From: Candidatus Micrarchaeota archaeon
GTDB taxonomy: Archaea > Micrarchaeota > Micrarchaeia > Norongarragalinales > SBBD01
DNA length: 64,000 bases
Reading direction: 5' to 3'
Assembly (NCBI GenBank): GCA_041305345.1
Contig: JBFYLP010000002.1
Span: 151,480 to 215,479, forward strand
Below the pieces are notes generated by a model that saw only the letters and a program-made list of their open reading frames with translations, made no database searches and was not told the origin of the DNA. The stretch's first letter is position 1; the number at the start of each line of letters is the position of its first letter. The translations under genes were made by a program, and so were the position numbers. This document shows, piece by piece, positions 3,957 through 59,679 of the stretch.

Positions 3957-3965
3957 GTGGTTGGT

Positions 3966-5300: not shown

Positions 5301-5323
5301 GCCGGTGCGGGAATGGGGCGCAA

Positions 5324-31698: not shown

Positions 31699-31831
31699 CG
31701 CCGGGAGGGAGATTCGAACTCCCGAATCCTTGCGGAAACCAGCTTACTTATTGATTAGGAAATTATTATTCCCTGGGTTGAATTCCCCATCCTACTCAAG
31801 GCTGGCGCATTAACCACTCTGCCACCCCGGC
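31699..31831 (-). tRNA. tRNA-Ser (anticodon UGA inferred) with ~50-nt intron at canonical 37/38; no encoded CCA
   Basis: Minus-strand read GCCGGGG-UG-GCA(D-stem)/UGC, anticodon stem CCAGC...GCUGG interrupted after CUUGAG, class-II variable arm UCCGCAAGGA, T-arm GGGAG-UUCGAAU-CUCCC, acceptor 3' UCCCGGC + discriminator G. Folded by hand. Confidence 0.65.
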
Positions 31832-31927: not shown

Positions 31928-32072
31928 TGGGCCCATAGCTCAACCAGGATAGAGCGACTGGTTCCGATCTTTGCTTTGATCGGGAGTCGATGCTTCGATC
32001 TTGGAAGAGGCCCGGTGTCTCTTCCCAAAGGAAAACACCAGTAGGTTGCGGGTTCAAATCCCGTTGGGCCCG
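31928..32072 (+). tRNA. tRNA-Arg (anticodon CCG inferred) with ~69-nt intron at canonical 37/38
   Basis: GGGCCCA-UA-GCUC/GAGC D-arm, anticodon stem ACUGG...CCAGU separated by 76 nt (UUCCGA | intron | A), T-arm GCGGG-UUCAAAU-CCCGU, acceptor UGGGCCC + discriminator G. Confidence 0.65.
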
Positions 32073-32753: not shown

Positions 32754-35700
32754 ATGCGAATTCCTTACGAGAGGGCATTTCTGATTTTTGCGTTTTTACT
32801 ATGTGCACCCGCGCTTGTTTTGGCAAAAATGCCAGATAAAGGAATCACGATAGCAGGCGAACTATCAGAGGCAGTGGAAATGCCCACTTCCGCAAATGAG
32901 GTAAAAACACCCATAAATGCGCTTCCGGAACATAAACTTTCAGGCGGGGTGTGCGGCGGGTATATTCCCTGCAGCTGCGGAGATACGGTAATTGCCAATG
33001 CCCTTCTTTCGGGCGACCTGCTCGATTGCCCCGGCATCGGCCTGTATGTGAATACGTCATACGTTACGATAAATTGCAACGGCCATACGATAAGCGGAAG
33101 CGGCGAGCAGGGGATCAGGATTGAAGGTGCGAGCAGCACATCCATCTATGGCTGCGCAATATCCCATTTCACAGTCGGAGTTGAAACGTTTGATTCCAAC
33201 AGGATAACATTGCAGTACAACCAATTCTCGCACAATAATTACGGAATCCTAATTCGGGGAGGGGAATACCATAACATTGGCAATAACGAGTTCACGATAA
33301 TGGACGGCGGCATGAACATCGGCATGGAACTGTATGGACCAACCCATAGCAACTTTCATGGAAACGTCCTAAGGAACATACCGGGATGGGGCATCCGCGC
33401 ATTCGATGGGAGCTATAATCATTTCAATAACAACATATTCGTCCACGTATGGAATGAGGCGATGGATTCGGAATGTTATTCCAAGGAAGGGGATAAATAC
33501 GGCGAACCCAACTATTGGATGGGAAACACCTGGTCGTCTTACCATTACATCGAATATGATGAAGACAATCATGCCTATTACTCAAGCAATGAGGGATACC
33601 CTTATTATTACTCGATACCCGGCGAAAAGGGATCGAAGGACTATAGCCCGAGGCAGTACGCGCCTTCCTATACGACATATTTCTCAATGAATAAGGCGGG
33701 CCCCACCACTGTTTGCGGAAACATCCGGTCGTATGACAACTTCTTTGGAAGGTACGTAACACAAGATAACATCGACTACGGTGCATATGTGATTATGAAT
33801 ACGGGAGATCAAATACCCCCGCAGGCACAAGCAACGTACCTAAGCGGCGGCATCTGGAGCTATTGCATCGATTTTTCCTCAAATTATGTCCCTAACGGCT
33901 CGTATCCAATAGAGGTGTACATTAACGACGCGGCCCCCAAGGTCCAATATTACTCCGTCACGAACACGCAGGTTACTCTTGGCGGATATGTCACCACAGT
34001 TGACGGCAACCCGATACCTGGCGCTCAAGTGTTCCTATTTCGGAAAACAAATTTGAATGTGCCCGTTGCGAGCGTCACGGCCTTCGATGGCCATTTCCAG
34101 TTTGAGGAGGTTATTCCGGGAACGTACTTCCTGCTTGCAGCGGATGGCGCGTTCCTGAACGCATCCAAAGTATCCGTGCAAGTGACAGGGCTTGCGTTAG
34201 AAGTTGCCCAGAACCTTACCCTTATTGCTTTGACGGACACATATAGGGCGCTTTCGCCAATGGTAAGGGACCTGCACATCAACGCCCTCAACATGGATTT
34301 CGATGTCACCCGCATTGCGAACTCGGTTACGCAGCAATTTAAGGATGATCTCGATCCCGACCCCGCCATGACATCGGCGGAAACGCTAATCGACGTCTTT
34401 TCGCCCATCGTGAGCGTAAACACGAAATGGAGGAATTTAGGCAAGCTTGGCAAATATTTCGAAACCGGAAGCATCGAGGTGCTTGGAAAAGCAATAAATA
34501 AAATTGCAAATGCCTGGGATTTTGAGTTAATGGTGCTAAATGGCATCTCGTCTGCGGAGATGGTATTGCTGCAAAACCTGATGGTCCAGCTGCAGGATGA
34601 CATACTGAATAAAAATCCCACAAATTTCTTTTTCTCGCCTTATTACCAGCAGATGCTTTATAGGCACGACATAGTCAAGACGTCATTCGACGCGCAGCTT
34701 GACAATCTGATCGACCCGGATTTCTCCAGGGAAAAAGCGCACGATTTCGTGAACCAGCAGAAATTGTCCGATAAGAAGATTCGGGAATTCGGGATGCAGG
34801 GGCATTATTTTGTTATCCCCGGCGGCACGGTCAACAGAATAAGGATGGGCGGAATCCAACAAGACTATGATTACCTTTCAATGAAGCTGCAGGCGTACGG
34901 CGTTGGGGATATGACCACTAGTGTTGGGTCGCTTACTGCAAACATCGGCTCGGTTTTTTTAATCCGGGCTAAAATGTTCAAGGCGGCGAAGATAACGGAA
35001 GGGGTGGGCTTCGCATTGGATGCGTCCGACGTAATTGCAACATTCCAGACGGCGAAGGCGGGAATGGAAGCGATGCTCTATTATTCGGAATCGGTACCGA
35101 GGGGATGGGCAAAGGACCTTGCAGCCGTTAATTCGCAGTTGAACGAGTCAGTAAGGTTCCTGACAAATGAGGCGAAAATGCCAAGATACCTTCACAGGGA
35201 TAATATTTACGTGGCGGAAATCGAATGGATCGACAAGGCTTGCGATTCCCAGGAGGAAGATATCTGCACATATAACGTGAATTCGTTTGGGAATTCTACG
35301 GAATATGCGGAAATCAGTTTCAATGTTGAAAATTATGTTGAGGATGCGGATATAACCATCGTGCCCACAATCACCATAACGGATAACCCGGATGCGGATA
35401 CCCTATTCATGCTCACTCCGCAGCGGATGGTTCTGGCCCAGGGGCATGGCACAACAGTCGATTACGACCTTCCCCTAAGTTACCTCGGGGCGGGAAAGAA
35501 ACAGTATTTGAGGCTCGATATCTACTATGCCGGGCTGTACAACGACTATATCGACATGACTTTTATGGTGAGGGATCCTATGCTCGAGGATAGGGACTTC
35601 AAAGCGGGAAGGGCATCAAGCAAGGGTAGGCATTCCCTCGGTTTTAGTCTCGACGAGCATATGATGAATTACACCTATATTCACAATGTAACGAATGGCA

Positions 35701-36890
35701 CGGCATCTACGGTAATAAGGAGCTATTCGGGAGCGTTTGGAATATCTGATCTCCATATTTACGACGAGGTTGGGAATCACGTGGGGTATGACTATGAAGC
35801 AGGCGGAGTAGTCTACGGAATTCCTGCAAAATGGTCAAGGAGCCCGATATCCGAAACAATAGAAATACCCGAAACGGGGGGCAAGGGCTATACGATAATG
35901 GTCGAGCTGCGCGATTTCGTCCCGGGCTACGGGGTCAAACATACTTTGGAGATCGAGGATTTGGCGGGAGTGGAGGAAGCTAGCGTGCTCGTAATGTCAG
36001 GGAAAATAAGCAGGTTTGCGGCTGCGGGAGGCGAAATTGAGCTTAATGCGATGGCTTACGAGGCAACGGGCCTCAGGCCTGCAGAGGGAGTTAGTGCGAC
36101 AATAAGCGACCTGAATGATAGCGAAGGCAACAGCCTTCAGCGGCTTTCACCGGACACCCATATATTCAGGCTTGGCGCAGGGGAACAATACCATTACGCC
36201 TTTATTTACAATATCAACGATAGTACGGAATTGGGAACGTACATAGGCACGCTGAACACCACTTTTGGCAACAGTTCGTCAATACAGGAGGTTGAATTGC
36301 ATATTGCCGGGATATGGGATGCGGACTTATCGATGCAAACGCCAAATCAGACCATTGGAATAAATGAAACCGCTACCCTAAGCATCCTGCTAGCTAATTC
36401 GGGGGGGCAACCTGTAAAAGGGGCGTTATTGAACGCGTTCACCAGCGATGAGGGGATTTTGAATATCGAACCGGGAATCCTAAAAACGGATGAATACGGA
36501 AGGTGCGAAGCGCAGATCACCGGGATCGCAGCTGGCAATGCGGTAATCAATTTAATGGATCTGGGGAACGCACATGACGAGTTGAACATCACAATCATCG
36601 AATCCTACGTCTGCGGAGATGCAAATGATGATGAAATCGTGAATATTCTGGATATCCTCTACTTAATTGATTATAAATTCAGGGGAGGGCCGGCGCCTAT
36701 TCCGGTTCTTTCCGGCGATGTGAACCTCGACGGCCTTGTAAACGTGCTCGATATCATCTACCTGATTGATTTTAAATTCAAGAATGGGCCAGCACCCTGC
36801 AGTGCCTCCTCCAGCGGAGGTGAGATGCAGATGAGTTATGAGCAGGTGGTGGAAGAGCTAAATTCCGCTTATAAGCCACCAAACCGATAA
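32754..36890 (+). CDS. 1378-aa secreted multidomain surface protein: right-handed beta-helix (PbH1-like) repeats, carboxypeptidase-regulatory-like domain, Big_2-like Ig domain, C-terminal type-I dockerin
   Basis: Signal peptide. NCNGHTISGSGEQGIRIEGASSTSIYGCAIS...NNYGILIRGGEYHNIGNN are beta-helix repeats. GYVTTVDGNPIPGAQVFLF...FDGHFQFEEVIPGTYFL is CarbopepD_reg-like. Two dockerin Ca-loops, DANDDEIVNILD...LYLIDYKF and DVNLDGLVNVLD...IYLIDFKF. Confidence 0.8.
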   Translation: MRIPYERAFLIFAFLLCAPALVLAKMPDKGITIAGELSEAVEMPTSANEVKTPINALPEHKLSGGVCGGYIPCSCGDTVIANALLSGDLLDCPGIGLYVNTSYVTINCNGHTISGSGEQGIRIEGASSTSIYGCAISHFTVGVETFDSNRITLQYNQFSHNNYGILIRGGEYHNIGNNEFTIMDGGMNIGMELYGPTHSNFHGNVLRNIPGWGIRAFDGSYNHFNNNIFVHVWNEAMDSECYSKEGDKYGEPNYWMGNTWSSYHYIEYDEDNHAYYSSNEGYPYYYSIPGEKGSKDYSPRQYAPSYTTYFSMNKAGPTTVCGNIRSYDNFFGRYVTQDNIDYGAYVIMNTGDQIPPQAQATYLSGGIWSYCIDFSSNYVPNGSYPIEVYINDAAPKVQYYSVTNTQVTLGGYVTTVDGNPIPGAQVFLFRKTNLNVPVASVTAFDGHFQFEEVIPGTYFLLAADGAFLNASKVSVQVTGLALEVAQNLTLIALTDTYRALSPMVRDLHINALNMDFDVTRIANSVTQQFKDDLDPDPAMTSAETLIDVFSPIVSVNTKWRNLGKLGKYFETGSIEVLGKAINKIANAWDFELMVLNGISSAEMVLLQNLMVQLQDDILNKNPTNFFFSPYYQQMLYRHDIVKTSFDAQLDNLIDPDFSREKAHDFVNQQKLSDKKIREFGMQGHYFVIPGGTVNRIRMGGIQQDYDYLSMKLQAYGVGDMTTSVGSLTANIGSVFLIRAKMFKAAKITEGVGFALDASDVIATFQTAKAGMEAMLYYSESVPRGWAKDLAAVNSQLNESVRFLTNEAKMPRYLHRDNIYVAEIEWIDKACDSQEEDICTYNVNSFGNSTEYAEISFNVENYVEDADITIVPTITITDNPDADTLFMLTPQRMVLAQGHGTTVDYDLPLSYLGAGKKQYLRLDIYYAGLYNDYIDMTFMVRDPMLEDRDFKAGRASSKGRHSLGFSLDEHMMNYTYIHNVTNGTASTVIRSYSGAFGISDLHIYDEVGNHVGYDYEAGGVVYGIPAKWSRSPISETIEIPETGGKGYTIMVELRDFVPGYGVKHTLEIEDLAGVEEASVLVMSGKISRFAAAGGEIELNAMAYEATGLRPAEGVSATISDLNDSEGNSLQRLSPDTHIFRLGAGEQYHYAFIYNINDSTELGTYIGTLNTTFGNSSSIQEVELHIAGIWDADLSMQTPNQTIGINETATLSILLANSGGQPVKGALLNAFTSDEGILNIEPGILKTDEYGRCEAQITGIAAGNAVINLMDLGNAHDELNITIIESYVCGDANDDEIVNILDILYLIDYKFRGGPAPIPVLSGDVNLDGLVNVLDIIYLIDFKFKNGPAPCSASSSGGEMQMSYEQVVEELNSAYKPPNR

Positions 36891-41124: not shown

Positions 41125-41679
41125 TTGGGGTGGATCCAAATGCGGCTTTTCCTCGCAATTGAGCTTCCGGAAGGGATTAGGGCGTGTCTGGGGAAGGTTC
41201 TAAAGGATCTGCGGAAGATGGGGCTGGAGGCATCCACCACGAAGGAAGAACAGCTGCACGTCACCTTGCTTTTTCTTGGCGATGTTGGTTATGAGGAGAA
41301 AAAAGGCATATTAGAAAATTGCCGTAGGATCGAATTCCCAAAGTTCGAAATTGCCATCCGCTCCCTTGGTTTCTTCCCTGATGAAAGAAGGATGCGGGTA
41401 TTATGGGCGGGCGCAAAAACCGCGAAAGGCGAATTGGAGGCGCTGCATTTTGAGGTGTGCAGGGCCCTTGGCAGGAAACCCGAGCAGGATTTCACGGGCC
41501 ACGTCACGCTGGCAAGAATAAAGGGGAAAAGGAATATTGGAGAATTAGTGAAAATGAAGGCGGGAAGACAAAATGAGGCTTTTGGGCAATTTATGCCGCA
41601 GCATTTCGTGCTGATGGAAAGCATCCTTACCCCCCACGGAGCGGAATATTCGGTTGTGGAAAGGTTTGGATTGAAATAG
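41125..41679 (+). CDS. thpR: RNA 2',3'-cyclic phosphodiesterase / 2'-5' RNA ligase (2H phosphoesterase, LigT/ThpR)
   Basis: Two HxT/S motifs: HVTLLFLG and HVTLARIK. Confidence 0.8.
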   Translation: MGWIQMRLFLAIELPEGIRACLGKVLKDLRKMGLEASTTKEEQLHVTLLFLGDVGYEEKKGILENCRRIEFPKFEIAIRSLGFFPDERRMRVLWAGAKTAKGELEALHFEVCRALGRKPEQDFTGHVTLARIKGKRNIGELVKMKAGRQNEAFGQFMPQHFVLMESILTPHGAEYSVVERFGLK

Positions 41680-42428: not shown

Positions 42429-42575
42429 GGGAAATAAAAGGGATAAGCCGGTTTTTCCCTAATTTCCCAATGGCCTTTCTTTTTTTAGGGGGCTTTTTTC
42501 ATTGGGGGAACCGGAAGGAGCATTGCTCTTTACGGCCGTGAAGAACTGCCGGTTCTTCCCGGATATAAAAGGTTT

Positions 42576-42794
42576 GCAGGGGTGGCGGAATCCGGTAACG
42601 CGCTAGACTCGAGATCTAGTTGGCCGCAAGGTCAGTATGGGTTCAAACCGCCTTGCTTTCTTTTAGAAAAAGAAAGCGATGGCGCCGCAAAGAAAACTAG
42701 GTTTGATTCGCGAATCAAAATGGTTCTTTGGCGCGGAGCCAACGCACCTTTCTTCTGAAGAAAGGGGCAAGGCGTGAAAATCCCATCCCCTGCG
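42576..42794 (+). tRNA. tRNA-Ser(CGA)-like gene interrupted in the T-loop by ~130 nt (candidate T-loop intron or split tRNA); exon 1 ~42576-42647, exon 2 ~42779-42794
   Basis: Exon 1: acceptor GCAGGGG, D-arm GCG/CGC with 11-nt loop containing GG, anticodon arm CUAGA-CUCGAGA-UCUAG (anticodon CGA), class-II variable arm GGCCGCAAGGUC, T-stem 5' AUGGG + UUCAAA. Exon 2: ...AAAAU-CCCAU (T-stem 3', 5/5 complementary) + CCCCUGC (acceptor 3', 7/7 complementary) + discriminator G at 42782-42794. Confidence 0.45.
42730..42794 (+). repeat. repeat copy R1 (~65 nt) carrying hairpin CCTTTCTTC-TGA-GAAGAAAGG and the tRNA 3'-exon-like end CCCATCCCCTGCG
   Basis: Direct repeat with R2. Conserved GGCG(C)GGAGCC...GGGGCAAGGC...CCATCCCCTGCG. 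Followed by an oligo-T run. Confidence 0.5.
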
Positions 42795-42814
42795 TTTTTT
42801 TATTTTGTTTTTTT

Positions 42815-42875
42815 GGCGGCGGAGCCTACGCCACCTTTTTGTTAAAAAGGGGGCAAGGCAAGACCATCCCCTGCG
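42815..42875 (+). repeat. repeat copy R2 (~61 nt), degenerate duplicate of R1 with compensatory hairpin CCTTTTT-GTT-AAAAAGG
   Basis: Same ends as R1. The hairpin stem is preserved by covarying changes. T-stem-like ACCAT gives 4/5 complementarity. Confidence 0.5.
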
Positions 42876-43047
42876 TTTCGTTCATTGAACATAATAAGGG
42901 ATATTTTGACATAGTTTAGCCGAATTGGGCTGATTTTTGCTTATTTTTTGTTTTCGGGCCGTATTTTCGTTCATTTTGCCGGAGTTTTTCGAATAAGAGA
43001 ATATTTATATATACCAAATAGCACTTAGCTATAACGTGGGGGGGAAC

Positions 43048-43341
43048 ATGGATGCTGAAATAGGGCTAGTTTACCAATTCGTAATGGTAGCAGCAGCCAT
43101 TTGGTTATTCGTCCATCTCACGTTTGGATTTGGAACGATTAGGGAAGCAATATTTCTTGGATTCCTGGGAATCATGATGCTCTTCCTGATGGAAGGTGCA
43201 AGCAGAATCGTTTTTTCAGTGGTTTTCATCGCAGGCGGGCTGCTAGCAATGCGGGCCTATAAGGTCGATATGAGGGCGGGAGCGATGTTCGTCCTTTGCG
43301 TTGCTGCAATCAGCCAATTCATGTTTCCCTTTGCCGAATGA
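43048..43341 (+). CDS. small 3-4-TM membrane protein, paralog A of a tandem triplicated family
   Basis: VAAAIWLFVHLTFGF...IAGGLLAMRAYKVD...VAAISQFMFPF resembles the two downstream ORFs. TATA-like ATTTATATATA lies ~40 nt upstream. Confidence 0.45.
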   Translation: MDAEIGLVYQFVMVAAAIWLFVHLTFGFGTIREAIFLGFLGIMMLFLMEGASRIVFSVVFIAGGLLAMRAYKVDMRAGAMFVLCVAAISQFMFPFAE

Positions 43342-43460
43342 TATGAATAAAATGCAAGTGACATCCATGGACAAAATAATGGTCCTGGCCCGCGGACCGA
43401 TTTTTGAATTGGGCGAGCCGTATTCCGGGGCGGCATGCTTCTTTGTTTGATGTGGTCGAT

Positions 43461-43781
43461 ATGCAAGTTACGTACCTTGGCGACATGGTTTACAGCTCGG
43501 ATTTCCTCTTCGCCCTCCTCATATTGACCATTGCAATCTGGCTCGTATTGAAGTTCCTATTCAATTTCGATTCGATGAACCACGCGCTGGTGTTTGCGAT
43601 CCTCGCGATGGTGATGCTGCCCTTCATTTTCACAGCTACGCAGATTTGGACTTCATTTTTCGTGGTTCTCATACTCGGAGGACTTGCGATATCGCAGGCA
43701 TACAAATGGCCAATAGGAACAAGCATCCTTATGTGCTTCATCGCATTGATCGCGGCTTCGATTCTGCTTCCCGCGCTTTAG
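43461..43781 (+). CDS. small membrane protein, paralog B
   Basis: LLILTIAIWLVLKFLFNFDSMNHALVFAILAMVMLPFIFTA...LGGLAISQAYKW...IALIAASILLPAL is clearly homologous to paralog C. Start taken at MQVTYLGD. Confidence 0.45.
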   Translation: MQVTYLGDMVYSSDFLFALLILTIAIWLVLKFLFNFDSMNHALVFAILAMVMLPFIFTATQIWTSFFVVLILGGLAISQAYKWPIGTSILMCFIALIAASILLPAL

Positions 43782-43790
43782 GTGGAATGA

Positions 43791-44114
43791 ATGGACGCGT
43801 ATTACCTCTCGGAGATTTTCTTCAACCAGGGATTCCTCCTAGGCTACATTTTCCTCACGATGCTCATATGGATTTTCCTTAGGACCGGGTTCGACTATGA
43901 CAATTTCGGCCAGGCGGCAATCATCGCATTGGTGGGGATAATTTTCATGCCTTCGATTGTAGCGGCAATGAGCCAAAGCGGCTCCGCATTCCTTTTAATC
44001 CTGCTCCTTTTAGGCTTGGCAATATCGAGCTCGTATGGCTGGAACCTGTCGGCAACGATGCTGATATTGGTGCTCGCTGTTTATTCAGCTGCGATGATTT
44101 TGCCTCGGCTTTAA
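43791..44114 (+). CDS. small membrane protein, paralog C
   Basis: IFLTMLIWIFLRTGFDYDNFGQAAIIALVGIIFMPSIVAA...LGLAISSSYGWN...LAVYSAAMILPRL. Confidence 0.45.
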   Translation: MDAYYLSEIFFNQGFLLGYIFLTMLIWIFLRTGFDYDNFGQAAIIALVGIIFMPSIVAAMSQSGSAFLLILLLLGLAISSSYGWNLSATMLILVLAVYSAAMILPRL

Positions 44115-44475: not shown

Positions 44476-45444
44476 ATGGGAGACAAGGGACCCCGCAGGG
44501 GATCGGTTGCGTACTGGCACAGGAAGCGTGCATCGAGCCTAGTCCCAAGGGTGCGCGCGTGGGCAGGAGGCGGCAAGGGCTTGCAGGGCTTCCTTGCATA
44601 CAAGGCGGGGATGGGCCAGGTAATGATGATCGAGGATTCGGAATCGCCTTTCAAAAACCAGGAGGTTGTGAAGGCAGCAACCGTACTCGAGGTTCCGCCG
44701 GTTTACGTTTATGCCGTCACTGCATATGAAAATTCGGAAACGGGCCTTAGAAAAATTGCAGAGATACCTGCATTCAATGCCCCAAAGCAGCTGAAACGCA
44801 CGCTTACCCTTGCGAAAAAATCAAAGATGAAGCTGGAGGAGCTCAAGGCCGGGGCGCTAGCTGATGTGCGCGTGATCGTTTCTGCGCAGCCCTGGAAAGC
44901 CGACCTGAAGAAGACGCCCGAGGTGGCGGAGATTGGGATTGCCGGAAAGGATGCCAGTGAAAAGCTTGCGTATGCAAAGGAGGTCCTTGGGAGGGAACTT
45001 GTGGCATCGGACGTATTCGTCGATGGCGATTTCGTGGATGTTATTGCCGTTACTAAAGGGAAAGGCTGGCAGGGAATAGTGAAAAGATTCGGTGTTGCTT
45101 TGGGGCCAAGGAAGGCAACACAGAGGAGAAGGCACGGCGGCTCAATTGGGCCCGAAACGCAGGCAAAGGTCATGTACACCATTCCACGCGCAGGCCAGAT
45201 GGGTTTCCATAGGAGGACCGATTCCAACAAGCGCATATTGCAAATCGGGGATCCTTCAATAGTCAAGGGAATTGCGCCGGCAGCTGGCTTCGAGGGATAC
45301 GGCGTCGTAAAGGCCGAGTTCCTGCTGGTAGAGGGCAGTGTTCCCGGGCCGGAGAAAAGGGCAATGATCGTAAGGAAGAATTTCGAAGGGAAGGCTGCGA
45401 AGAAGCCCGATGTCCGGAAGTTGCTCTTCAATGCGAAGGAGTGA
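44476..45444 (+). CDS. rpl3: 50S ribosomal protein uL3
   Basis: MGDKGPRRGSVAYWHRKRA... N-terminus plus conserved W/G-rich core. Standard position at the head of the operon. Confidence 0.95.
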   Translation: MGDKGPRRGSVAYWHRKRASSLVPRVRAWAGGGKGLQGFLAYKAGMGQVMMIEDSESPFKNQEVVKAATVLEVPPVYVYAVTAYENSETGLRKIAEIPAFNAPKQLKRTLTLAKKSKMKLEELKAGALADVRVIVSAQPWKADLKKTPEVAEIGIAGKDASEKLAYAKEVLGRELVASDVFVDGDFVDVIAVTKGKGWQGIVKRFGVALGPRKATQRRRHGGSIGPETQAKVMYTIPRAGQMGFHRRTDSNKRILQIGDPSIVKGIAPAAGFEGYGVVKAEFLLVEGSVPGPEKRAMIVRKNFEGKAAKKPDVRKLLFNAKE

Positions 45445-55556: not shown

Positions 55557-56078
55557 ATGATGGGCGAATGCGGCATTCGGGGCATGCTCGAGCTGTTCAT
55601 CCTTGTTGAATGCAAGGATAGGCCTTCCTCAGGGAAGGACTTGGTCGCGAAGGCCACGCTGCTATCCGATGGCACGTGGAAGCCTTCAGCAGGAAGCATA
55701 TACCCGCTATTGCAGAAAATGGAGAAGGGCGGGCTGATAAAGGCGTCCCTTAGGAAACAGGAAAAGGGGAGGCGCGAGATAGCATATGCGATCACCGGGA
55801 AGGGAAAGGCCGTCCTCGAGGCCGGCAAGGAAAAACTCGAAAGCAGCATGCATACCACTTTGACAGCCGTGAACCCGATCCTATTCCGGATCGCGCACGA
55901 ATTCGACGGGGAGCAATTGGAGGAGGCAAAGCGATTCTGGAAGGCGATGATGGACCTGCGGACGCTTATGATGGCCGAGCCCAGAAGGGAATTGAGGCAT
56001 AGGCGCTTCATAAGGTTGTTTAAAATGGCACAAAGGGAAATAGAATTGATGAAAACGGAACTGGGATTGGAAAAATGA
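55557..56078 (+). CDS. PadR-family transcriptional regulator
   Basis: GMLELFILVEC...SSGKDL...GSIYPLLQKMEKGGLI is the PadR wHTH signature. The ORF table begins at 55461 but Met 55557 fits the family. Confidence 0.7.
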   Translation: MMGECGIRGMLELFILVECKDRPSSGKDLVAKATLLSDGTWKPSAGSIYPLLQKMEKGGLIKASLRKQEKGRREIAYAITGKGKAVLEAGKEKLESSMHTTLTAVNPILFRIAHEFDGEQLEEAKRFWKAMMDLRTLMMAEPRRELRHRRFIRLFKMAQREIELMKTELGLEK

Positions 56079-56815
56079 CGTCGCATAAGGTCGTAATGAA
56101 ACTGGAGGGCGTATGCAAGACATACGGCGAGGGCGATGCGCAGGTTAAGGCGCTTTGCGGAGTGAACCTCGAATTCCGGGAGGGCGAGGTCGTCGCCATA
56201 ATGGGCCCTTCGGGAAGCGGGAAGAGCACGATGTTGCACATCCTCGGACTGCTGGATAGGCCAACCGAGGGAAAGCTTTACCTGGATGGGATCGAGACCT
56301 CGACATTGAATGACGACGAACTTGCGGTAATTAGGGGGAAGAAGATAGGCTTCGTATTCCAGTTTTTCTTCCTCATACCTTCCCTTACCGTACAGGAAAA
56401 CGTGGAGCTGCCGATGATGCTTCTTGGGATCGACGAGGTTGAGAGGGCAAGGCGGGCTAGGGAACTCCTTGAAAAGGTGGGGCTTGGCGACCGGATGCAC
56501 CACCTTCCATCAGAGCTATCGGGCGGGCAGAGGCAAAGGACCGCAATAGCAAGGGCGCTTGCAAATGATCCCTCAATAATAATGGCGGATGAGCCAACGG
56601 GAAACCTCGATTCCAAAACCGGCTCGGAAATAATGGCATTATTTGATGAATTGAACAAGAAGGATGGCCGCACAATAGTCTTTGTGACCCACGATCCCGA
56701 CCTGGTGCGCCATTCTGAGAGGGTAATACTACTAAGGGACGGCGCAATCGAGAAGGTGATTGGGGACGGAAAGCGCCTTCTGACCCATATGGGCAATATT
56801 CGTCTTAAAAAATAG
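56075..56815 (+). CDS. ABC transporter ATP-binding protein, MacB/LolD-type
   Basis: GPSGSGKST, LSGGQRQRTAIARAL, IMADEPTGNLD, VTHD. Confidence 0.9.
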   Translation: MTSHKVVMKLEGVCKTYGEGDAQVKALCGVNLEFREGEVVAIMGPSGSGKSTMLHILGLLDRPTEGKLYLDGIETSTLNDDELAVIRGKKIGFVFQFFFLIPSLTVQENVELPMMLLGIDEVERARRARELLEKVGLGDRMHHLPSELSGGQRQRTAIARALANDPSIIMADEPTGNLDSKTGSEIMALFDELNKKDGRTIVFVTHDPDLVRHSERVILLRDGAIEKVIGDGKRLLTHMGNIRLKK

Positions 56816-56824
56816 GTGGTTTGA

Positions 56825-58378
56825 ATGAACGGAAATGCTTTGGTAATTGCTTTTGGTATGTTTTTATTCTTGATCGCGCCACTGGTGAGCGCGGGAGTGC
56901 AGGTAACGACCTTCAGCATCACGCCAACGACCCTCAAGCCCGGAATGTCGGGCACCATCTCATTGACATTGAACAATCCCAGTGCAACGGAGTTCATCAC
57001 GGCCGCATACCTGAAAGCTCGGGCCAACGGCATAAATTTTGTCCCCGAAACCAAGATCGGGGACCTTGGTGCCGAGGGTACGACCATTGTCGCGATACCA
57101 TTCACAGTAGCGGAAAACACCAATCCGGGGGTCATTCCGGTTACCCTGGAGTTGTCATACACGAGCAGCGTAAGCGAAGGCGGGAACTATAAGTCCTTCT
57201 CTATCCCCCTCACGGTATCCGCCACCAACCTTCTGAAGGTCACCGATGTGGAAATCAGCCAGGACACAATTTTTCCCGGGGATTCATTCACAATTGATGC
57301 GGTCATCGAGGATTCCGGCGGCCCGATCAAGAATGCGGTCCTCAGCTATTCGGCAACCGCGGCATACACTTTCGAGGGGACGTCAAAACTGGACGTGGGA
57401 AACCTCGCAGCAGGGGAGAGGAAAAGCATCAGGATACCGGTAATAGCGGGCAACAGCATAACGGGAGGGTATTATTCAATCCCATTCACGATCACGTTCG
57501 ATGATGCGGTCACGGCGGGGAATGTGGACACGCTTTATTTCGGCCCGGTGACGGCGATCCAGGACACAGCAAAATTCGCGATCTCCGCGGAAGCCATTGA
57601 TGCAACGCCCGGCGGCAAGGGCATCTTCAGGATCGCAGTGGAAAATACGGGAACCAACGACCTTAGGAATTTCAAGATTGCACTGCCCCAGAGCGCCACA
57701 TTCTTTACGCCCCTGGATTTTGCGGAAAAAACAATTGATGTGATCAAATCGGGCGAAACAAAGACCATTGATTTCGACGTGGGGATCGGGACGAACATCG
57801 TGCCCCAGGTTTACCAGCTCCAGCTGACAACCACATACCAGACGAAAAGCGGGAGCCAGACAGCTGAAAAAACGGTTGGCGTGAAAATCGGCGGGGCACC
57901 TGATCTATCGGTTTACCTCAGCTCGAACCCGGCTGTGATTTCTAATGACAACAAAGTATATTCGATTTCAGTGCAGGTCGCAAATACCGGCAATTCCGCG
58001 GTCAGGGCGCTTTCGCTTAAGGCAGGCGCAAAGGAGCTTGAGATCCTTGGCGCAGCCGACTCCTTCATCGGGACCCTGAGCCTTGACGATTACAGCACGG
58101 TTCAATTCGATGCGGTCGTCGCTAAGGGGATTGCGCCTGGGAAGTACAGGATGGCAGTCGAACTCTCATACAAGGACTCGTATAACACGCCCCACATCGA
58201 GAACAAGTACGTGGAATACGACATCTATTCCCAGGAGGTGGCCCTGCTCGCCAGCAAGCAGAACGGGAACAACCCGATGGTGATGGTGGCTATTGGCATC
58301 GTCATCCTCATTGTCGCATACTTCGCGTACAAGCGTTTCTTCCGGAGCCAGATGAGCCAGAAGCTGAAATTGAAATGA
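56825..58378 (+). CDS. secreted COG1361-like beta-sandwich surface protein with C-terminal TM anchor (paralog of 3966..5300)
   Basis: Signal peptide, repeated beta-rich modules, C-terminal TM MVMVAIGIVILIVAYFAYKRFFR. Sits between the ABC ATPase and the FtsX permeases. Confidence 0.6.
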   Translation: MNGNALVIAFGMFLFLIAPLVSAGVQVTTFSITPTTLKPGMSGTISLTLNNPSATEFITAAYLKARANGINFVPETKIGDLGAEGTTIVAIPFTVAENTNPGVIPVTLELSYTSSVSEGGNYKSFSIPLTVSATNLLKVTDVEISQDTIFPGDSFTIDAVIEDSGGPIKNAVLSYSATAAYTFEGTSKLDVGNLAAGERKSIRIPVIAGNSITGGYYSIPFTITFDDAVTAGNVDTLYFGPVTAIQDTAKFAISAEAIDATPGGKGIFRIAVENTGTNDLRNFKIALPQSATFFTPLDFAEKTIDVIKSGETKTIDFDVGIGTNIVPQVYQLQLTTTYQTKSGSQTAEKTVGVKIGGAPDLSVYLSSNPAVISNDNKVYSISVQVANTGNSAVRALSLKAGAKELEILGAADSFIGTLSLDDYSTVQFDAVVAKGIAPGKYRMAVELSYKDSYNTPHIENKYVEYDIYSQEVALLASKQNGNNPMVMVAIGIVILIVAYFAYKRFFRSQMSQKLKLK

Positions 58379-58453
58379 GGACGGGCGGATCTTGCGGCTT
58401 CCCTTGCCGTCATTTCCAAAGTTGCGCCAAGCCCGCTTGGATGGCAGGATATT

Positions 58454-59659
58454 ATGGTTTCGAACGTCGATGTACTCGAATATTCGATTGCGAACATGCA
58501 GCACCGCCAGTTAAGGAGCTGGCTTACGGTGCTTGGCATCGTGATTGGGATCGCCTCCATTGTGCTGCTGGTTTCCATCGGGCAGGGCCTCGACAAGGAG
58601 ATAAAGAACCAATTGAGCTCAATTGGCACCAACTACATCATCATTCTTCCGGGGAGCCCGTATGAAAGCGGTGCGCAGTTCGGGCCGCCTACATTCAAAG
58701 GCGAGCTGTACCAGGCCGATGCCGACGCCATCCGCAGGCTTCCGGGGATGAAATCAGTCTCATCCGCGGTAGTAATCGGGGTTGCAAACCTCGAATACAA
58801 GGGCGAGAAGGCAAGCACCGTTGCGGTCGGCGCGGAGCCGTATGCGATGGAGGATTTCCTCACGATCGGGTATGAGAAAGGAAAATTCCTCGATGAAAGC
58901 GACATCGGAGGCGTCGTGCTTGGCAACAATGTTGCAAAAACTCTTTTTCCGGATGAAGTCGAGTATGGGAAGACAATAAAGATCAATGGAAGGGATTTCC
59001 GTGTGAAGGGCATCCTGAAGAAGGGCGGCTCGTTTAGCCAATTCGACAGTTTCGTGTTCATTGACCAGGGCGTTGCCAGGGAGCTTGGGAAGACTGTTGG
59101 AAGCAAGCGGATCGACCGAATTTTTTCGATCGCAACCTCCGCAGAAGAGGTGCCGGCCTTGGAACAGGGTATCATCAAGGAAATCTCAAAGAGGCACCGG
59201 CTGCCGGTTGAGAAGCGGGATTTCCAGACGACCACACCCCAGAGCATATCGGATTCCATAAGCCAGATCACGAGCCTTCTTTCAATTTTTTTGGGGCTGA
59301 TCGCCACGATTTCACTTATCGTAGGGATGGTGGGCATTGCAAACGCGATGTTCACATCGGTGCTCGAGCGCACAAGGGAGATTGGCATCCTGAAGGCGGT
59401 TGGCGCCAATGAACGCACGATCATAAAAATTTTCCTCTACGAATCCGGCCTGATAGGATTGGTTGGCGGGCTCATCGGGGTGCTTATTGGCGTTGGCTTG
59501 TCGATGCTCCTATCGAAAATCGGCGTTCCTTCCTCGGTCTCATTTGATTTCGTGCTGATATGCCTCATCGCGTCCTCCGTGGTGGGGCTGTTATCCGGCG
59601 CATTGCCGGCATTGAACGCATCAAAGCTCCAGCCTGTTGAGGCGCTAAGGTATGAGTGA
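58454..59659 (+). CDS. ABC transporter permease, FtsX/MacB family
   Basis: N-terminal RQLRSWLTVLGIVIGIAS, periplasmic domain, C-terminal 3-TM bundle ending LQPVEALRYE. Confidence 0.85.
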   Translation: MVSNVDVLEYSIANMQHRQLRSWLTVLGIVIGIASIVLLVSIGQGLDKEIKNQLSSIGTNYIIILPGSPYESGAQFGPPTFKGELYQADADAIRRLPGMKSVSSAVVIGVANLEYKGEKASTVAVGAEPYAMEDFLTIGYEKGKFLDESDIGGVVLGNNVAKTLFPDEVEYGKTIKINGRDFRVKGILKKGGSFSQFDSFVFIDQGVARELGKTVGSKRIDRIFSIATSAEEVPALEQGIIKEISKRHRLPVEKRDFQTTTPQSISDSISQITSLLSIFLGLIATISLIVGMVGIANAMFTSVLERTREIGILKAVGANERTIIKIFLYESGLIGLVGGLIGVLIGVGLSMLLSKIGVPSSVSFDFVLICLIASSVVGLLSGALPALNASKLQPVEALRYE

Positions 59660-59679
59660 CAATCAAGGTATGAAGGGTT

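What the first reader, a model, noticed from the sequence alone, without database searches (positions are those of the whole stretch)
42576..42794. tRNA-Ser(CGA)-like gene whose T-stem 3' strand and acceptor 3' strand lie ~140 nt downstream: candidate T-loop intron or split tRNA
At 42576-42647 all 5' elements of a class-II tRNA are present. These are acceptor GCAGGGG, a D-arm GCG/CGC with an 11-nt loop, an anticodon arm CUAGA/UCUAG with loop CUCGAGA (anticodon CGA, Ser), a variable-arm hairpin GGCCGCAAGGUC, and a T-stem 5' strand AUGGG followed by UUCAAA. Immediately downstream nothing pairs. At 42782-42794, however, the sequence CCCAU-CCCCUGC-G gives a perfect 5-bp T-stem partner, a perfect 7-bp acceptor partner and the Ser-type discriminator G. 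Both sides carry AAA at the junction, so splicing could regenerate a UUCAAAU T-loop. The ~130-nt intervening segment holds three hairpins and T-runs. A T-loop intron of this length, or a cis-encoded split tRNA, would be unusual. The two ordinary tRNAs in this window (Ser-UGA, Arg-CCG) have canonical-position introns, so the lineage uses the splicing endonuclease heavily. Caveat: a TATA-like GATATAAAAGG at 42562-42572 is too close to position 1 to be a normal tRNA promoter.
Basis: seen in the sequence. Interest (0 to 1): 0.75.

Follow-up and report, generated by a model that had tools for sequence, protein, structure and literature searches.

The report
tRNA-Ser gene with T-loop intron
This is a real serine tRNA gene of a tiny DPANN archaeon (Micrarchaeota), interrupted in its T-loop by a 133-base intron of the ordinary archaeal protein-spliced kind; such T-loop introns are already known in this lineage, so it is a long new example and not a new mechanism.

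Summary
Exon 1 is 42576-42647, the intron is 42648-42780 (133 nt) and exon 2 is 42781-42794. The junctions form a textbook strict bulge-helix-bulge motif: ATGGG-TTCA-[AA|C]-CGCCTTGC ... GCAAGGCG-TGAA-[AA|T]-CCCAT. That places the intron at tRNA position 59/60. Splicing gives an 86-nt tRNA-Ser(CGA) with T-loop UUCAAAU.

An unconstrained fold returns the cloverleaf plus this motif (z = -6.4). Seven syntenic orthologues in related Micrarchaeota genomes give the same 86-nt tRNA. They show compensatory changes in acceptor pairs that span the intron. It is therefore a functional cis-spliced gene, not a split tRNA and not a pseudogene.

Introns at 59/60 and 56/57 are documented in Micrarchaeota (ARMAN-2) and Thermoproteales, so I rate this a new member of a known kind.

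Two things go beyond the finding:
- This one orthologous gene carries introns at five positions (15/16, 28/29, 37/38, 56/57, 59/60) across eight genomes. One intron core is shared between position 28/29 and position 56/57.
- Conserved pseudo-3'-half units (an intron 3' part plus the tRNA 3' end) lie downstream in five genomes, including the window at 42807-42875. They point to duplication or integration at this locus.

The parts
42576..42647 (+). Exon 1 of tRNA-Ser(CGA). It holds the acceptor 5' strand, D arm, anticodon arm (CGA at 42610-42612), long variable arm, T-stem 5' strand ATGGG and T-loop nucleotides 54-59 (TTCAAA).
   Evidence: sequence; ARAGORN on the spliced form; Rfam tRNA model, 25.9 bits on this part; all pairs kept in orthologues.
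42642..42656 (+). 5' half of the bulge-helix-bulge motif: central-helix strand TTCA (42642-45), bulge AA|C (42646-48, cut after 42647), inner-helix strand CGCCTTGC (42649-56).
42648..42780 (+). 133-nt intron at tRNA position 59/60. It is an imperfect long palindrome containing hairpin TTTCTTTTAGAAAAAGAAAG (42657-76), a GC-rich segment CGATGGCGCCGC, hairpin TTTGATTCGCGAATCAAA and, at its 3' end, a conserved 'unit' (about 42727-42780). The longest T run is 4.
   Evidence: fold; homology to the 59/60 introns of L015 and L107; T runs; unit HMM hits 42724-42799 forward and 42694-42637 reverse.
42767..42781 (+). 3' half of the bulge-helix-bulge motif: inner-helix strand GCAAGGCG (42767-74), central-helix strand TGAA (42775-78), bulge AA|T (42779-81, cut after 42780).
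42781..42794 (+). Exon 2: T60, T-stem 3' strand CCCAT, acceptor 3' strand CCCCTGC, discriminator G73. CCA is not encoded.
   Evidence: Compensatory changes at acceptor pairs 3:70 and 5:68 in orthologues.
42795..42813 (+). T-rich tract TTTTTTTATTTTGTTTTTT directly after the discriminator. This is the likely archaeal transcription terminator of the tRNA gene (inferred).
   Evidence: first run of 5 or more T downstream of 42499.
42807..42875 (+). Pseudo-3' half ('unit 2'): T-run, GGCGGCGGAGCC..CGCCACC hairpin, CCTTTTTGTTAAAAAGG hairpin, GGGGGCAAGGC, then AAGA-CCATCCCCTGCG. It lacks the TGAA central-helix strand, the bulge and one T-stem base, so it cannot complete the tRNA.
   Evidence: second copy of CCATCCCCTGCG; alignment with units of L003, L019, L020, L107; 82-86% identity; colinear with unit C of L003; E = 2e-21.
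42561..42572 (+). TATA-like GGATATAAAAGG, 4-15 nt upstream of tRNA position 1. It is too close for a standard archaeal promoter. The real promoter is unresolved.
   Evidence: In relatives L017, L020, L107, L014 and L019 the A/T-rich boxes sit about 25-45 nt upstream.

Best explanation
Positions 42576-42794 are the single-copy, syntenic tRNA-Ser(CGA) gene of a Micrarchaeota (DPANN) archaeon. The gene is transcribed as one precursor of at least 219 nt.

In the precursor, the T-stem (ATGGG/CCCAT) extends into a 4-bp helix (UUCA/UGAA). That helix is flanked by two 3-nt bulges and followed by an 8-bp intron helix (CGCCUUGC/GCAAGGCG). This is a strict hBHBh' bulge-helix-bulge motif.

The archaeal tRNA splicing endonuclease cuts after the second nucleotide of each bulge, that is after 42647 and after 42780. 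This releases a 133-nt intron from position 59/60. An RNA ligase (RtcB in archaea) then joins the exons to give an 86-nt class II tRNA with T-loop UUCAAAU. CCA is added after transcription.

Shown here: the sequence elements, the splicing motif, the fold, the spliced tRNA, and conservation and covariation in orthologues.

Inferred: the cleavage and ligation themselves, the enzyme type (a broad-specificity endonuclease such as the epsilon2 type described for ARMAN-2), the terminator and the promoter.

The intron has no recognisable cargo. Its length comes from accreted hairpin modules. Its 3' third is one copy of a conserved 'unit' that also occurs as dead pseudo-3' halves downstream of this gene in several relatives.
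For: 1. Splicing motif. This junction pair ranks first in the scan: central helix 4/4, outer helix 5 bp, inner helix 8 Watson-Crick bp or 11 bp counting G-U pairs, bulges [AA|C] and [AA|T].
2. Fold. The unconstrained minimum-energy fold is the cloverleaf plus this motif, z = -6.4, and 0 of 200 shuffles fold as well.
3. Product. The spliced sequence is called tRNA-Ser(cga).
4. Chance. 0 of 20,000 shuffles give the 12-nt 3' partner.
5. Organism and synteny. The ribosomal protein L3 encoded in the window is closest to L3 of Micrarchaeota metagenome-assembled genomes. The gene order LigT, HhH-GPD, tRNA, three small membrane ORFs, Zn-ribbon, L3 operon is shared.
6. Orthologues. L015, L107, L003 (also seen in the second assembly L106), L014, L019, L020 and L017 all reduce to an 86-nt Ser(cga) tRNA. 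All cells are paired, with compensatory double changes at acceptor pairs 3:70 (A:U to U:A) and 5:68 (G:C to A:U), which link the 5' strand to the distal 3' strand, and at two variable-arm pairs.
7. Same intron elsewhere. L015 (77 nt) and L107 (153 nt) carry homologous introns at the same 59/60 site. Each has a strict motif whose inner helix covaries: GACTTG/CAAGTC, GCCTTG/CAGGGC, CGCCTTGC/GCAAGGCG.
8. Transcription unit. No run of 5 or more T lies inside the gene, and a T7 run starts at 42795.
9. Precedent. 59/60 introns occur in ARMAN-2, and its epsilon2 endonuclease cleaved a 59/60 intron in vitro (PMC3239211).
Against: No RNA data are available, so splicing is inferred.

No splicing endonuclease or RtcB gene was found among about 55 window ORFs scanned with Pfam. 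The window is 64 kb of a contig of about 298 kb, so this says little.

The only TATA-like box between the upstream T-runs and the gene sits 4-15 nt from position 1, too close for a normal archaeal promoter. How the precursor is transcribed is therefore unresolved.

I could not check the rest of the genome for a second tRNA-Ser(CGA).

Neither ARAGORN nor the Rfam gathering threshold detects the unspliced gene. That is expected for a 133-nt T-loop insertion.
Confidence: 0.9

Rival explanations
1. Decayed pseudogene or integration scar. On this reading the 5' part is a dead tRNA fragment and the downstream CCCATCCCCTGCG is a leftover attachment-site copy, with no functional link between them.
For: tRNA 3'-end copies do litter this locus: a second, clearly dead copy lies at 42807-42875. 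Further copies lie downstream of the orthologous gene in L003, L019, L020 and L107. The TATA-like box is misplaced.
Against: A perfect strict bulge-helix-bulge motif sits exactly where it restores a 7-nt T-loop. Acceptor pairs that span the intron show compensatory changes across orthologues, and every cell is paired. The same 59/60 intron has a covarying inner helix in L015 and L107. The gene occupies the syntenic place where L017, L019 and L020 have an uninterrupted T arm. The intron has no T-run, while a T7 run follows exon 2 directly.
Confidence: 0.05
2. Split tRNA. On this reading the 5' part (42576 to about 42660) and the 3' part (about 42727-42794) are transcribed separately and joined in trans through the complementary CGCCTTGC/GCAAGGCG leader and trailer, as in Nanoarchaeum equitans or Caldivirga maquilingensis.
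For: The long complementary helix next to the junction (8 Watson-Crick bp, 11 counting G-U) looks like the leader/trailer pairing of split tRNA halves. Free-standing 'units' (leader-like hairpins plus the tRNA 3' end, each preceded by a T-run) exist downstream of the gene in relatives.
Against: The two parts are 133 nt apart on the same strand. I saw no A/T-rich promoter-like box and no terminator between them (sequence). The copy of the unit inside the intron has lost the T-run that free units carry: it reads TTCTTTGGCG where free units read TTTTTTTGGCGG. The cis fold is strongly favoured. Three relatives have a continuous T arm and two have shorter or longer cis introns at the same site.
Confidence: 0.03
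3. Origin, model A. The intron's 3' unit and the downstream pseudo-3' halves are footprints of site-specific integration of a mobile element into the tRNA 3' end (right-arm plus core, attR-like copies). The present 59/60 intron would then be a domesticated remnant of such an insertion. This is the type of model proposed for Caldiarchaeum tRNA-Thr, with an attachment site that contains intron sequence.
For: 1. Units keep 80-88% identity between genomes whose L3 proteins are only 66-79% identical, while flanking intergenic DNA is not alignable.
2. Each unit ends at the tRNA 3' end.
3. Distal units are more decayed than proximal ones.
4. In L107 a unit is separated from the tRNA by about 650 nt carrying a glyoxalase/bleomycin-resistance family gene and T-arm debris, as expected for direct repeats flanking captured DNA.
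5. Unit C of L003 carries a different acceptor strand and an unsplit T-loop.
6. A published model of this type exists (PMC3293823).
Against: No integrase or recombinase gene lies near any of the loci. No viral, phage or plasmid record carries the unit. Most units are only 20-30 nt from the preceding copy, so nearly all element DNA would have had to be deleted each time, with similar end points.
Confidence: 0.3
4. Origin, model B. An ancestral 59/60 intron-containing gene underwent local tandem duplications of the segment 'intron 3' part plus exon 2 plus terminator', by slippage between T-runs. Lineages then kept different copies or lost the intron precisely, by deletion between the AAA repeats at the two bulges.
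For: 1. Units are homologous to the 3' part of the 59/60 introns plus exon 2 (L015 E = 1e-4, L107 E = 1.4e-5, window 1.9e-19).
2. Window and L003 are colinear such that the window's functional exon 2 aligns with the dead unit B of L003, and the window's unit 2 aligns with unit C of L003. L003's functional exon lies where the window has intron.
3. T-runs border every unit.
4. The AAA microhomology at both junctions would allow exact intron loss.
5. Unit cores carry the acceptor variant of their own genome: CCCCTGC in the window, CCCCAGC in L003, L019 and L020.
Against: It does not easily explain the high between-genome conservation of dead units. It does not explain the short and long unit types, each shared across genomes, or the 650-nt gene-bearing insert in L107. 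The L3 tree is too star-like to order the events.
Confidence: 0.35

Closest known systems
Non-canonical T-loop introns of Candidatus Micrarchaeum acidiphilum ARMAN-2: pre-tRNA-Cys(GCA) at 59/60, and pre-tRNA-Pro(GGG) at 53/54 plus 59/60. The ARMAN-2 epsilon2 splicing endonuclease cleaved the pre-tRNA-Cys(GCA) 59/60 intron in vitro (Fujishima et al. 2011, PMC3239211).
   Same: Same phylum (Micrarchaeota), same insertion site 59/60, and the same bulge-helix-bulge logic. The Pro(GGG) example is strict hBHBh', as here. More than half of the tRNA genes in that genome are disrupted.
   Different: The isoacceptor here is Ser(CGA). The intron is about ten times longer (133 nt against the 13 nt of the ARMAN-2 Cys intron). 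It is built of repeated hairpin modules, and dead 3'-half copies follow the gene. The endonuclease type of this organism was not determined.
Non-canonical and multiple tRNA introns of Thermoproteales, and 'intron transposition' (Sugahara et al. 2008; Fujishima et al. 2010; summarised in PMC4090602).
   Same: Introns occur at 56/57, 59/60 and other non-canonical sites. Related intron sequences are found at different positions. Here the 28/29 intron of L107 shares a 44-nt core with the 56/57 intron of L003 and L014.
   Different: This is a DPANN lineage, not Thermoproteota. The relocation here is seen within one orthologous gene across related genomes, not between different tRNA genes of one genome.
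Heterogeneity at the Caldiarchaeum subterraneum tRNA-Thr(GGU) locus: intron gain plus a displaced tRNA fragment, attributed to integration of a pNOB8-like element (Sugahara et al. 2012, PMC3293823).
   Same: An intron-polymorphic tRNA gene is accompanied by direct-repeat tRNA fragments. The idea that an attachment site carrying intron sequence can seed or move an intron applies to both.
   Different: There, a 5' fragment lies 1.8 kb upstream with a recombinase gene between. Here, 14-20-nt 3'-end copies with about 55 nt of conserved upstream hairpins lie in tight tandem with no recombinase. Only in L107 is there a gene-bearing insert.
Split and 'recently split' tRNA genes (Nanoarchaeum equitans, Caldivirga maquilingensis, Staphylothermus; Chan, Cozen and Lowe 2011, PMC3218864).
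   Same: A bulge-helix-bulge motif at the junction is stabilised by a long complementary helix next to the exon ends.
   Different: Here both exons are in one transcription unit 133 nt apart. Nothing requires trans-splicing.
Long functional intron of Haloferax volcanii tRNA-Trp, a C/D-box guide RNA (cited in PMC4090602).
   Same: A tRNA intron longer than 100 nt, removed by the bulge-helix-bulge pathway.
   Different: That intron is at the canonical 37/38 site and encodes C/D boxes. Reading the intron sequence, I saw no C box (RUGAUGA) in 42648-42780. No Rfam family scores significantly on it.

Membership tests
Archaeal bulge-helix-bulge tRNA intron (protein-spliced) | Two 3-nt bulges on opposite strands separated by a 4-bp helix, with cleavage after the second bulge nucleotide | tested here: met
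   TTCA/TGAA central helix with bulges AA|C and AA|T. Top hit of the motif scan. Reproduced by the unconstrained minimum-energy fold.
Archaeal bulge-helix-bulge tRNA intron (protein-spliced) | Flanking helices h (exon-exon) and h' (intron), i.e. the strict hBHBh' form | tested here: met
   h is the 5-bp T-stem ATGGG/CCCAT. h' is CGCCTTGC/GCAAGGCG, 8 Watson-Crick bp, or 11 with G-U. h' covaries in L015 and L107.
Archaeal bulge-helix-bulge tRNA intron (protein-spliced) | Removal restores a canonical tRNA | tested here: met
   86-nt product, ARAGORN tRNA-Ser(cga), 7-nt T-loop TTCAAAT. All 24 cloverleaf pairs are kept in 6 distinct orthologue sequences, 4 of them with compensatory changes.
Archaeal bulge-helix-bulge tRNA intron (protein-spliced) | Host encodes a splicing endonuclease able to act at non-canonical positions (epsilon2 or (alpha-beta)2 type) and an RtcB-type ligase | tested here: inconclusive
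   Neither family was found among about 55 ORFs of the 64-kb window. The rest of the genome is not available here. The epsilon2 enzyme is known from ARMAN-2 (PMC3239211).
Archaeal bulge-helix-bulge tRNA intron (protein-spliced) | Spliced mature RNA and excised (often circular) intron detectable | not testable with these tools
   No RNA data are available.
Split (trans-spliced) tRNA gene | The halves are separate transcription units, each with its own promoter and terminator, usually at distant loci | tested here: not met
   The halves are 133 nt apart on one strand with no run of 5 or more T between them. The cis fold has z = -6.4. Orthologues have a continuous T arm or cis introns.
tRNA pseudogene / attachment-site remnant | Loss of stem pairing or of essential loops; no constraint across relatives | tested here: not met
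   For 42576-42794, all stems are paired and compensatory changes are present. The feature IS met by the second copy at 42807-42875, which lacks the central-helix strand, the bulge and one T-stem base.
Integrated mobile element at a tRNA gene (attL/attR direct repeats) | Direct repeats of the tRNA 3' part flanking DNA that encodes an integrase or recombinase | tested here: not met
   The direct repeats are present, but only 12 nt of T-rich DNA (42795-42806) lie between exon 2 and unit 2 in the window. No integrase was found in the window or in relatives' loci. L107 has a 650-nt insert with a glyoxalase-family gene only.
C/D-box guide RNA housed in a tRNA intron | C box RUGAUGA and D box CUGA near the ends of the intron | tested here: not met
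   One CUGA and no C box are seen on reading 42648-42780 (sequence). No snoRNA family scores significantly on the intron in the Rfam E-value scan.

The most novel reading that the evidence does not exclude
This tRNA-Ser(CGA) locus may be a natural time series of intron birth, relocation, extension and loss at the DNA level.

On this reading the 59/60 intron is a palindromic, MITE-like or attachment-site-derived module. Its arm, together with the tRNA 3' end, is repeatedly copied or integrated downstream. Lineages then switch which 3' copy completes the tRNA. The window's functional exon 2 is positionally equivalent to a dead unit in L003. That switching would lengthen the intron, or shift it between 56/57 and 59/60. 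The same intron core has also moved between 28/29 and 56/57.

If true, this would give a concrete mechanism for the long-unexplained 'transposition' of archaeal bulge-helix-bulge introns.
Probability: 0.3. Interest if true: 0.65.

Novelty: new member of a known kind. Interest (0 to 1): 0.4.

Why it matters
For annotation, standard finders miss this gene: ARAGORN finds nothing and Rfam scores below threshold. The genome would therefore be scored as lacking tRNA-Ser(CGA). DPANN genomes are often called incomplete or tRNA-poor for exactly this reason.

For biology, the intron itself is a long example of a documented class. The comparative picture is more useful. Eight related genomes carry the same 86-nt tRNA. 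Across those genomes the gene is interrupted at five different positions. They share intron cores at different positions and carry conserved dead 3'-half units. How bulge-helix-bulge introns are gained, moved and lost at the DNA level is an open question. This locus is a compact data set for it, and for testing whether mobile-element integration at tRNA 3' ends is involved.

Tried and rejected
- ARAGORN on the raw window found no tRNA. With -i it finds only the two canonical-intron tRNAs.
- Rfam at gathering thresholds finds only those two tRNAs. An E-value scan of 42450-42950 gave a sub-threshold tRNA hit on the 5' part and only chance-level miRNA or sRNA hits on the intron.
- I first suspected an integrated provirus downstream, because of many small same-strand ORFs. 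Pfam shows it is the L3-L4-L23-L2-S19-L22-S3 ribosomal operon preceded by three small membrane proteins.
- I searched for a distant second attachment-site copy in the window. There is none; there is only the copy 13 nt downstream.
- IMG/VR scans with the unit junction (0 hits) and with two 15-16-nt unit blocks (27 and 58 hits) gave nothing real. All hits were seed-length chance matches when checked by BLAST.
- BLAST of the intron plus unit 2 against GenBank phages and PLSDB plasmids gave no match.
- Exact-protein look-ups of window proteins to recover the source contig mostly failed or gave only a 1.3-kb fragment.
- The HhH-GPD homologue P0005 led to a non-syntenic locus. L108 (60% L3 identity) has no tRNA-Ser at that place.
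- My first strict motif scan missed the relaxed motifs of L003 and L014, because it required an outer helix of at least 2 bp. They were resolved by hand and then confirmed.
- An attempt to see a decayed first exon 2 inside the window's intron gave only weak, non-significant similarity to L003. I do not claim it.
- An L3 neighbour-joining tree was too star-like to polarise intron gains and losses.
Full report
**1. What is in the sequence**

The elements, in order:
- acceptor 5' strand GCAGGGG
- a 3-bp D stem with an 11-nt loop
- anticodon arm CTAGA-CTCGAGA-TCTAG, with anticodon CGA at 42610-42612
- a long variable arm, TTGGCCGCAAGGTCAGT
- T-stem 5' strand ATGGG, followed by TTCAAA
- 133 nt further on, T-CCCAT-CCCCTGC-G.

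ARAGORN finds no tRNA in the raw window. Rfam at its gathering thresholds finds only two other tRNAs, at 31699-31831 (-) and 31929-32072 (+). On 42576-42657 alone the Rfam tRNA model scores 25.9 bits, just under its threshold of 29.

**2. Is it more than chance?**

I shuffled the 400 nt downstream of exon 1, preserving dinucleotides, 20,000 times. No shuffle contained a 12/12 partner for the T-stem plus acceptor strands, and five reached 11/12.

I wrote a scan for the archaeal splicing motif: a 4-bp helix flanked by two 3-nt bulges, with cuts after the second bulge nucleotide. Over 42500-42950 the best candidate is exon 1 ending at 42647 and exon 2 starting at 42781:

ATGGG-TTCA-[AA|C]-CGCCTTGC ... 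GCAAGGCG-TGAA-[AA|T]-CCCAT

The outer helix is 5 bp, the central helix 4/4, and the inner helix 8 Watson-Crick bp, or 11 counting G-U pairs. This is a strict hBHBh' motif, and it places the intron between tRNA positions 59 and 60.

An unconstrained RNAfold of the 219-nt precursor returns the complete cloverleaf plus exactly this motif. The energy is -91.1 kcal/mol against -67.0 +/- 3.8 for shuffles (z = -6.4). Joining the exons gives an 86-nt sequence that ARAGORN calls tRNA-Ser(cga), with a 7-nt T-loop TTCAAAT.

The intron contains no run of more than four T. A T7 run begins at 42795, directly after the discriminator base. That fits one transcription unit which reads through the intron and terminates after exon 2.

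**3. Whose gene is it?**

The ribosomal protein L3 encoded at 44476-45444 is 42-77% identical to L3 of Micrarchaeota (DPANN) metagenome-assembled genomes. Downstream of the tRNA lie three small paralogous membrane proteins, a Zn-ribbon protein and the L3-L4-L23-L2-S19-L22-S3 operon. Upstream lie an HhH-GPD glycosylase and a LigT-like 2H phosphoesterase. This is chromosomal DNA, not a provirus.

**4. Orthologues**

Through L3, a neighbouring membrane protein and a pattern from exon 1, I recovered the syntenic locus from seven other genomes:
- L015, GCA_043803465.1
- L107, GCA_053535475.1
- L003, also recovered as L013; a second assembly, L106, is identical over the tRNA and its units
- L014
- L019, GCA_043820675.1
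- L020
- L017, also recovered as L018, GCA_016212475.1.

In L002 the contig starts inside the tRNA 3' end.

After removal of their insertions, all seven reduce to an 86-nt tRNA-Ser(CGA). On the six distinct spliced sequences every one of the 24 cloverleaf pairs is a standard pair in every sequence. Four pairs show compensatory double changes. Two are in the acceptor stem: 3:70 A:U to U:A and 5:68 G:C to A:U. These two tie the 5' strand to the 3' strand that lies beyond the intron.

This rules out a pseudogene or a chance juxtaposition.

**5. The same gene, five intron positions**

The motif table (for the window) gives:

| Locus | Position | Length | Motif |
|---|---|---|---|
| window | 59/60 | 133 nt | strict |
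| L015 | 59/60 | 77 nt | strict; inner helix GACTTG/CAAGTC |
| L107 | 59/60 | 153 nt | strict; inner helix GCCTTG/CAGGGC |
| L107 | 28/29 | 82 nt | central helix 4/4, inner helix 6 bp |
| L107 | 37/38 | 20 nt | central helix 4/4, outer helix 3 bp |
| L003, L014 | 56/57 | 63 and 65 nt | relaxed; GGGT/GCYC, inner helix AGCC/GGCT |
| L003, L014 | 15/16 | 45 and 30 nt | relaxed |
| L019, L020 | 15/16 | 31 and 44 nt | relaxed; T arm continuous |
| L017 | 37/38 | 18 nt | central helix 3/4, outer helix 6 bp; T arm continuous |

The three 59/60 introns are homologous along much of their length. The 28/29 intron of L107 shares a 44-nt core, CTTTTTCTTTT..AAAGAAAAAG.CCCTT.G..GAAAAAGAAA, with the 56/57 intron of L003 and L014 (score 40-45; 0 of 1000 shuffles). 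So a related intron sits at different positions of the same gene in different genomes. This is the pattern called intron transposition in Thermoproteales (PMC4090602, citing Fujishima et al. 2010).

**6. Pseudo-3' halves**

Thirteen nucleotides after exon 2 the window has a second, defective copy of 'intron 3' part plus exon 2' at 42807-42875:

TTTTTTT-GGCGGCGGAGCCTACGCCACC-TTTTTGTTAAAAAGG-GGGCAAGGC-AAGA-CCATCCCCTGCG

It lacks the TGAA strand, the bulge and one T-stem base, so it cannot complete the tRNA.

The same unit recurs downstream of the orthologous gene. It has five parts: a T-run, a GGCGGCGGAGCC..CGCC hairpin, a CCTTTTT..AAAAAGG hairpin, GGGGCAAGGCG, and the tRNA 3' end.
- L003 has two copies.
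- L019 has one copy plus a shorter core copy.
- L020 has two to three copies.
- L107 has one copy. It sits about 650 nt away, beyond a glyoxalase/bleomycin-resistance family gene.
- L014, L015 and L017 have none.

Units are 80-88% identical between genomes whose L3 proteins are 66-79% identical. A unit HMM finds them only at this locus in about 250 kb of window plus loci. It also matches the 3' part of the 59/60 introns in the forward orientation and their 5' part in the reverse orientation. The intron is therefore a long imperfect palindrome made of two inverted unit-like arms.

A colinear alignment shows that the window's functional exon 2 corresponds to the dead unit B of L003, and the window's unit 2 to unit C of L003. 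L003's functional exon lies where the window has intron sequence.

**7. What the units mean**

Two origins fit, and I cannot decide between them.

- Model A, footprints of site-specific integration into the tRNA 3' end, as proposed for Caldiarchaeum (PMC3293823). In favour: the cross-genome conservation, the decay gradient from proximal to distal units, and the gene-bearing insert in L107.
- Model B, local tandem duplication between T-runs, followed by differential retention and exact intron loss through the AAA microhomology at the two bulges. In favour: the colinearity, and the fact that each unit core carries the acceptor variant of its own genome.

Against model A, no integrase is seen anywhere. 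No viral, phage or plasmid record carries the unit. The L3 tree is too star-like to polarise the events.

**8. Mechanism**

Shown here: a cis precursor that folds into cloverleaf plus strict bulge-helix-bulge motif; a spliced product that is a canonical class II tRNA-Ser(CGA); and purifying selection on pairing across the intron.

Inferred from established knowledge of archaeal tRNA splicing:
- The splicing endonuclease cuts at 42647/42648 and 42780/42781 and leaves 2',3'-cyclic phosphate and 5'-OH ends.
- RtcB ligates the exons.
- RNase P and a 3' nuclease trim the ends, and CCA is added.

A strict motif can in principle be cut by any archaeal EndA. The relaxed motifs in the relatives imply a broad-specificity enzyme, like the epsilon2 type of ARMAN-2. 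That enzyme cleaved a 59/60 intron in vitro (PMC3239211). No EndA or RtcB gene lies in the 64-kb window, which is uninformative.

The promoter is unresolved. The only TATA-like box between the upstream T-runs (42480-42499) and the gene is 4-15 nt from position 1. In several relatives A/T-rich boxes sit about 25-45 nt upstream.

**9. Comparison with what is known, and verdict**

T-loop introns at 59/60, with strict and relaxed motifs, are documented in Micrarchaeota (PMC3239211). Positions 56/57 and 59/60 are listed among the standard non-canonical positions (PMC4090602).

The finding is therefore a new, unusually long member of a known kind. It is not a split tRNA, not a pseudogene and not a new mechanism. 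Its practical importance is that standard annotation misses it.

The wider locus comparison is the part worth a specialist's time: five intron positions, a relocated intron core, tandem dead 3' halves and apparent switching of the 3' exon. Its mechanistic reading remains open.

Interest 0.4. The most novel reading not excluded is DNA-level intron mobility through palindromic or attachment-site-derived units, with 3'-exon switching: probability about 0.3, interest 0.65 if true.

Noticed in passing
window 42807-42875: A dead second copy of 'intron 3' part plus tRNA 3' end' lies 13 nt after the gene. The same conserved unit recurs downstream of the orthologous tRNA in L003 (3803-3882, 3896-3974), L019 (832-911), L020 (2042-2114 and further fragments) and L107 (1741-1813).
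   Followed up: yes
L107 804-1144; L003 3593-3786; L014 8317-8137 (-); L019 709-825; L020 1893-2022; L017 2692-2795: The orthologous tRNA-Ser(CGA) carries introns at 15/16, 28/29, 37/38, 56/57 or 59/60, depending on the genome. L107 has three introns at once. The L107 28/29 intron shares a 44-nt core with the 56/57 intron of L003 and L014.
   Followed up: yes
L107 1145-1740: A glyoxalase/bleomycin-resistance family gene (1249-1668) and T-arm-like debris (GGGTTCGAATGC, GGTTCGAATACCATACACAGCA) are inserted between the tRNA and its downstream unit. The other genomes have nothing at that place. This looks like DNA captured between direct repeats.
   Followed up: partly
window 42561-42572 and 42452-42499: The only TATA-like box upstream of the tRNA is 4-15 nt from position 1. 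Three T-runs (5-7 T) lie 77-124 nt upstream. The promoter and the leader of this tRNA are unclear. L015 has a similarly long T-run-containing upstream region.
   Followed up: partly
window 41125-41679 (+): A LigT-like 2H phosphoesterase / 2'-5' RNA ligase family gene sits two genes upstream of the heavily spliced tRNA. It is also present upstream of the tRNA in L015, L003 (seen in L013) and L019. The family acts on 2',3'-cyclic phosphate RNA ends, which splicing endonucleases produce. This may be coincidence.
   Followed up: no
window 31699-31831 (-) and 31929-32072 (+): Two divergently placed tRNAs carry long canonical-position introns: Arg(CCG) with 69 nt, and a class II tRNA with about 50 nt. 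ARAGORN -i labels the second Thr(tgt), but its stem CCAGC/GCTGG, loop CTTGAG(A) and long variable arm make it Ser(UGA).
   Followed up: partly
window 43036-44114 (+): Three tandem paralogous small membrane proteins (about 100-125 aa, no Pfam match) lie between the tRNA and the ribosomal-protein operon. They are conserved in all related loci and otherwise nearly absent from the 5.8-billion-protein database (2 hits).
   Followed up: partly
window 3210-6619 versus 56075-60870: Duplicated ABC-transporter modules (ABC_tran, CARDB/NPCBM_assoc protein, MacB_PCD/FtsX permease) lie about 53 kb apart, with 67-77% DNA identity in patches. There is a further tandem permease duplicate at 58454-60870.
   Followed up: no
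window 8140-11940 (-): A 1266-aa superfamily-1 helicase (AAA_11/AAA_12, DUF4011) is fused to a C-terminal MTES_1575 restriction-endonuclease-like domain.
   Followed up: no
window 32754-36890 (+): A 1378-aa secreted-type protein has beta-helix/NosD, CarboxypepD_reg and Big_1 domains and a C-terminal dockerin type I domain. A dockerin is unusual in an archaeon with a small genome. L020 has a protein of more than 3400 aa, with NosD/beta-helix, glycoside hydrolase family 25 and PKD domains, just upstream of its tRNA.
   Followed up: no
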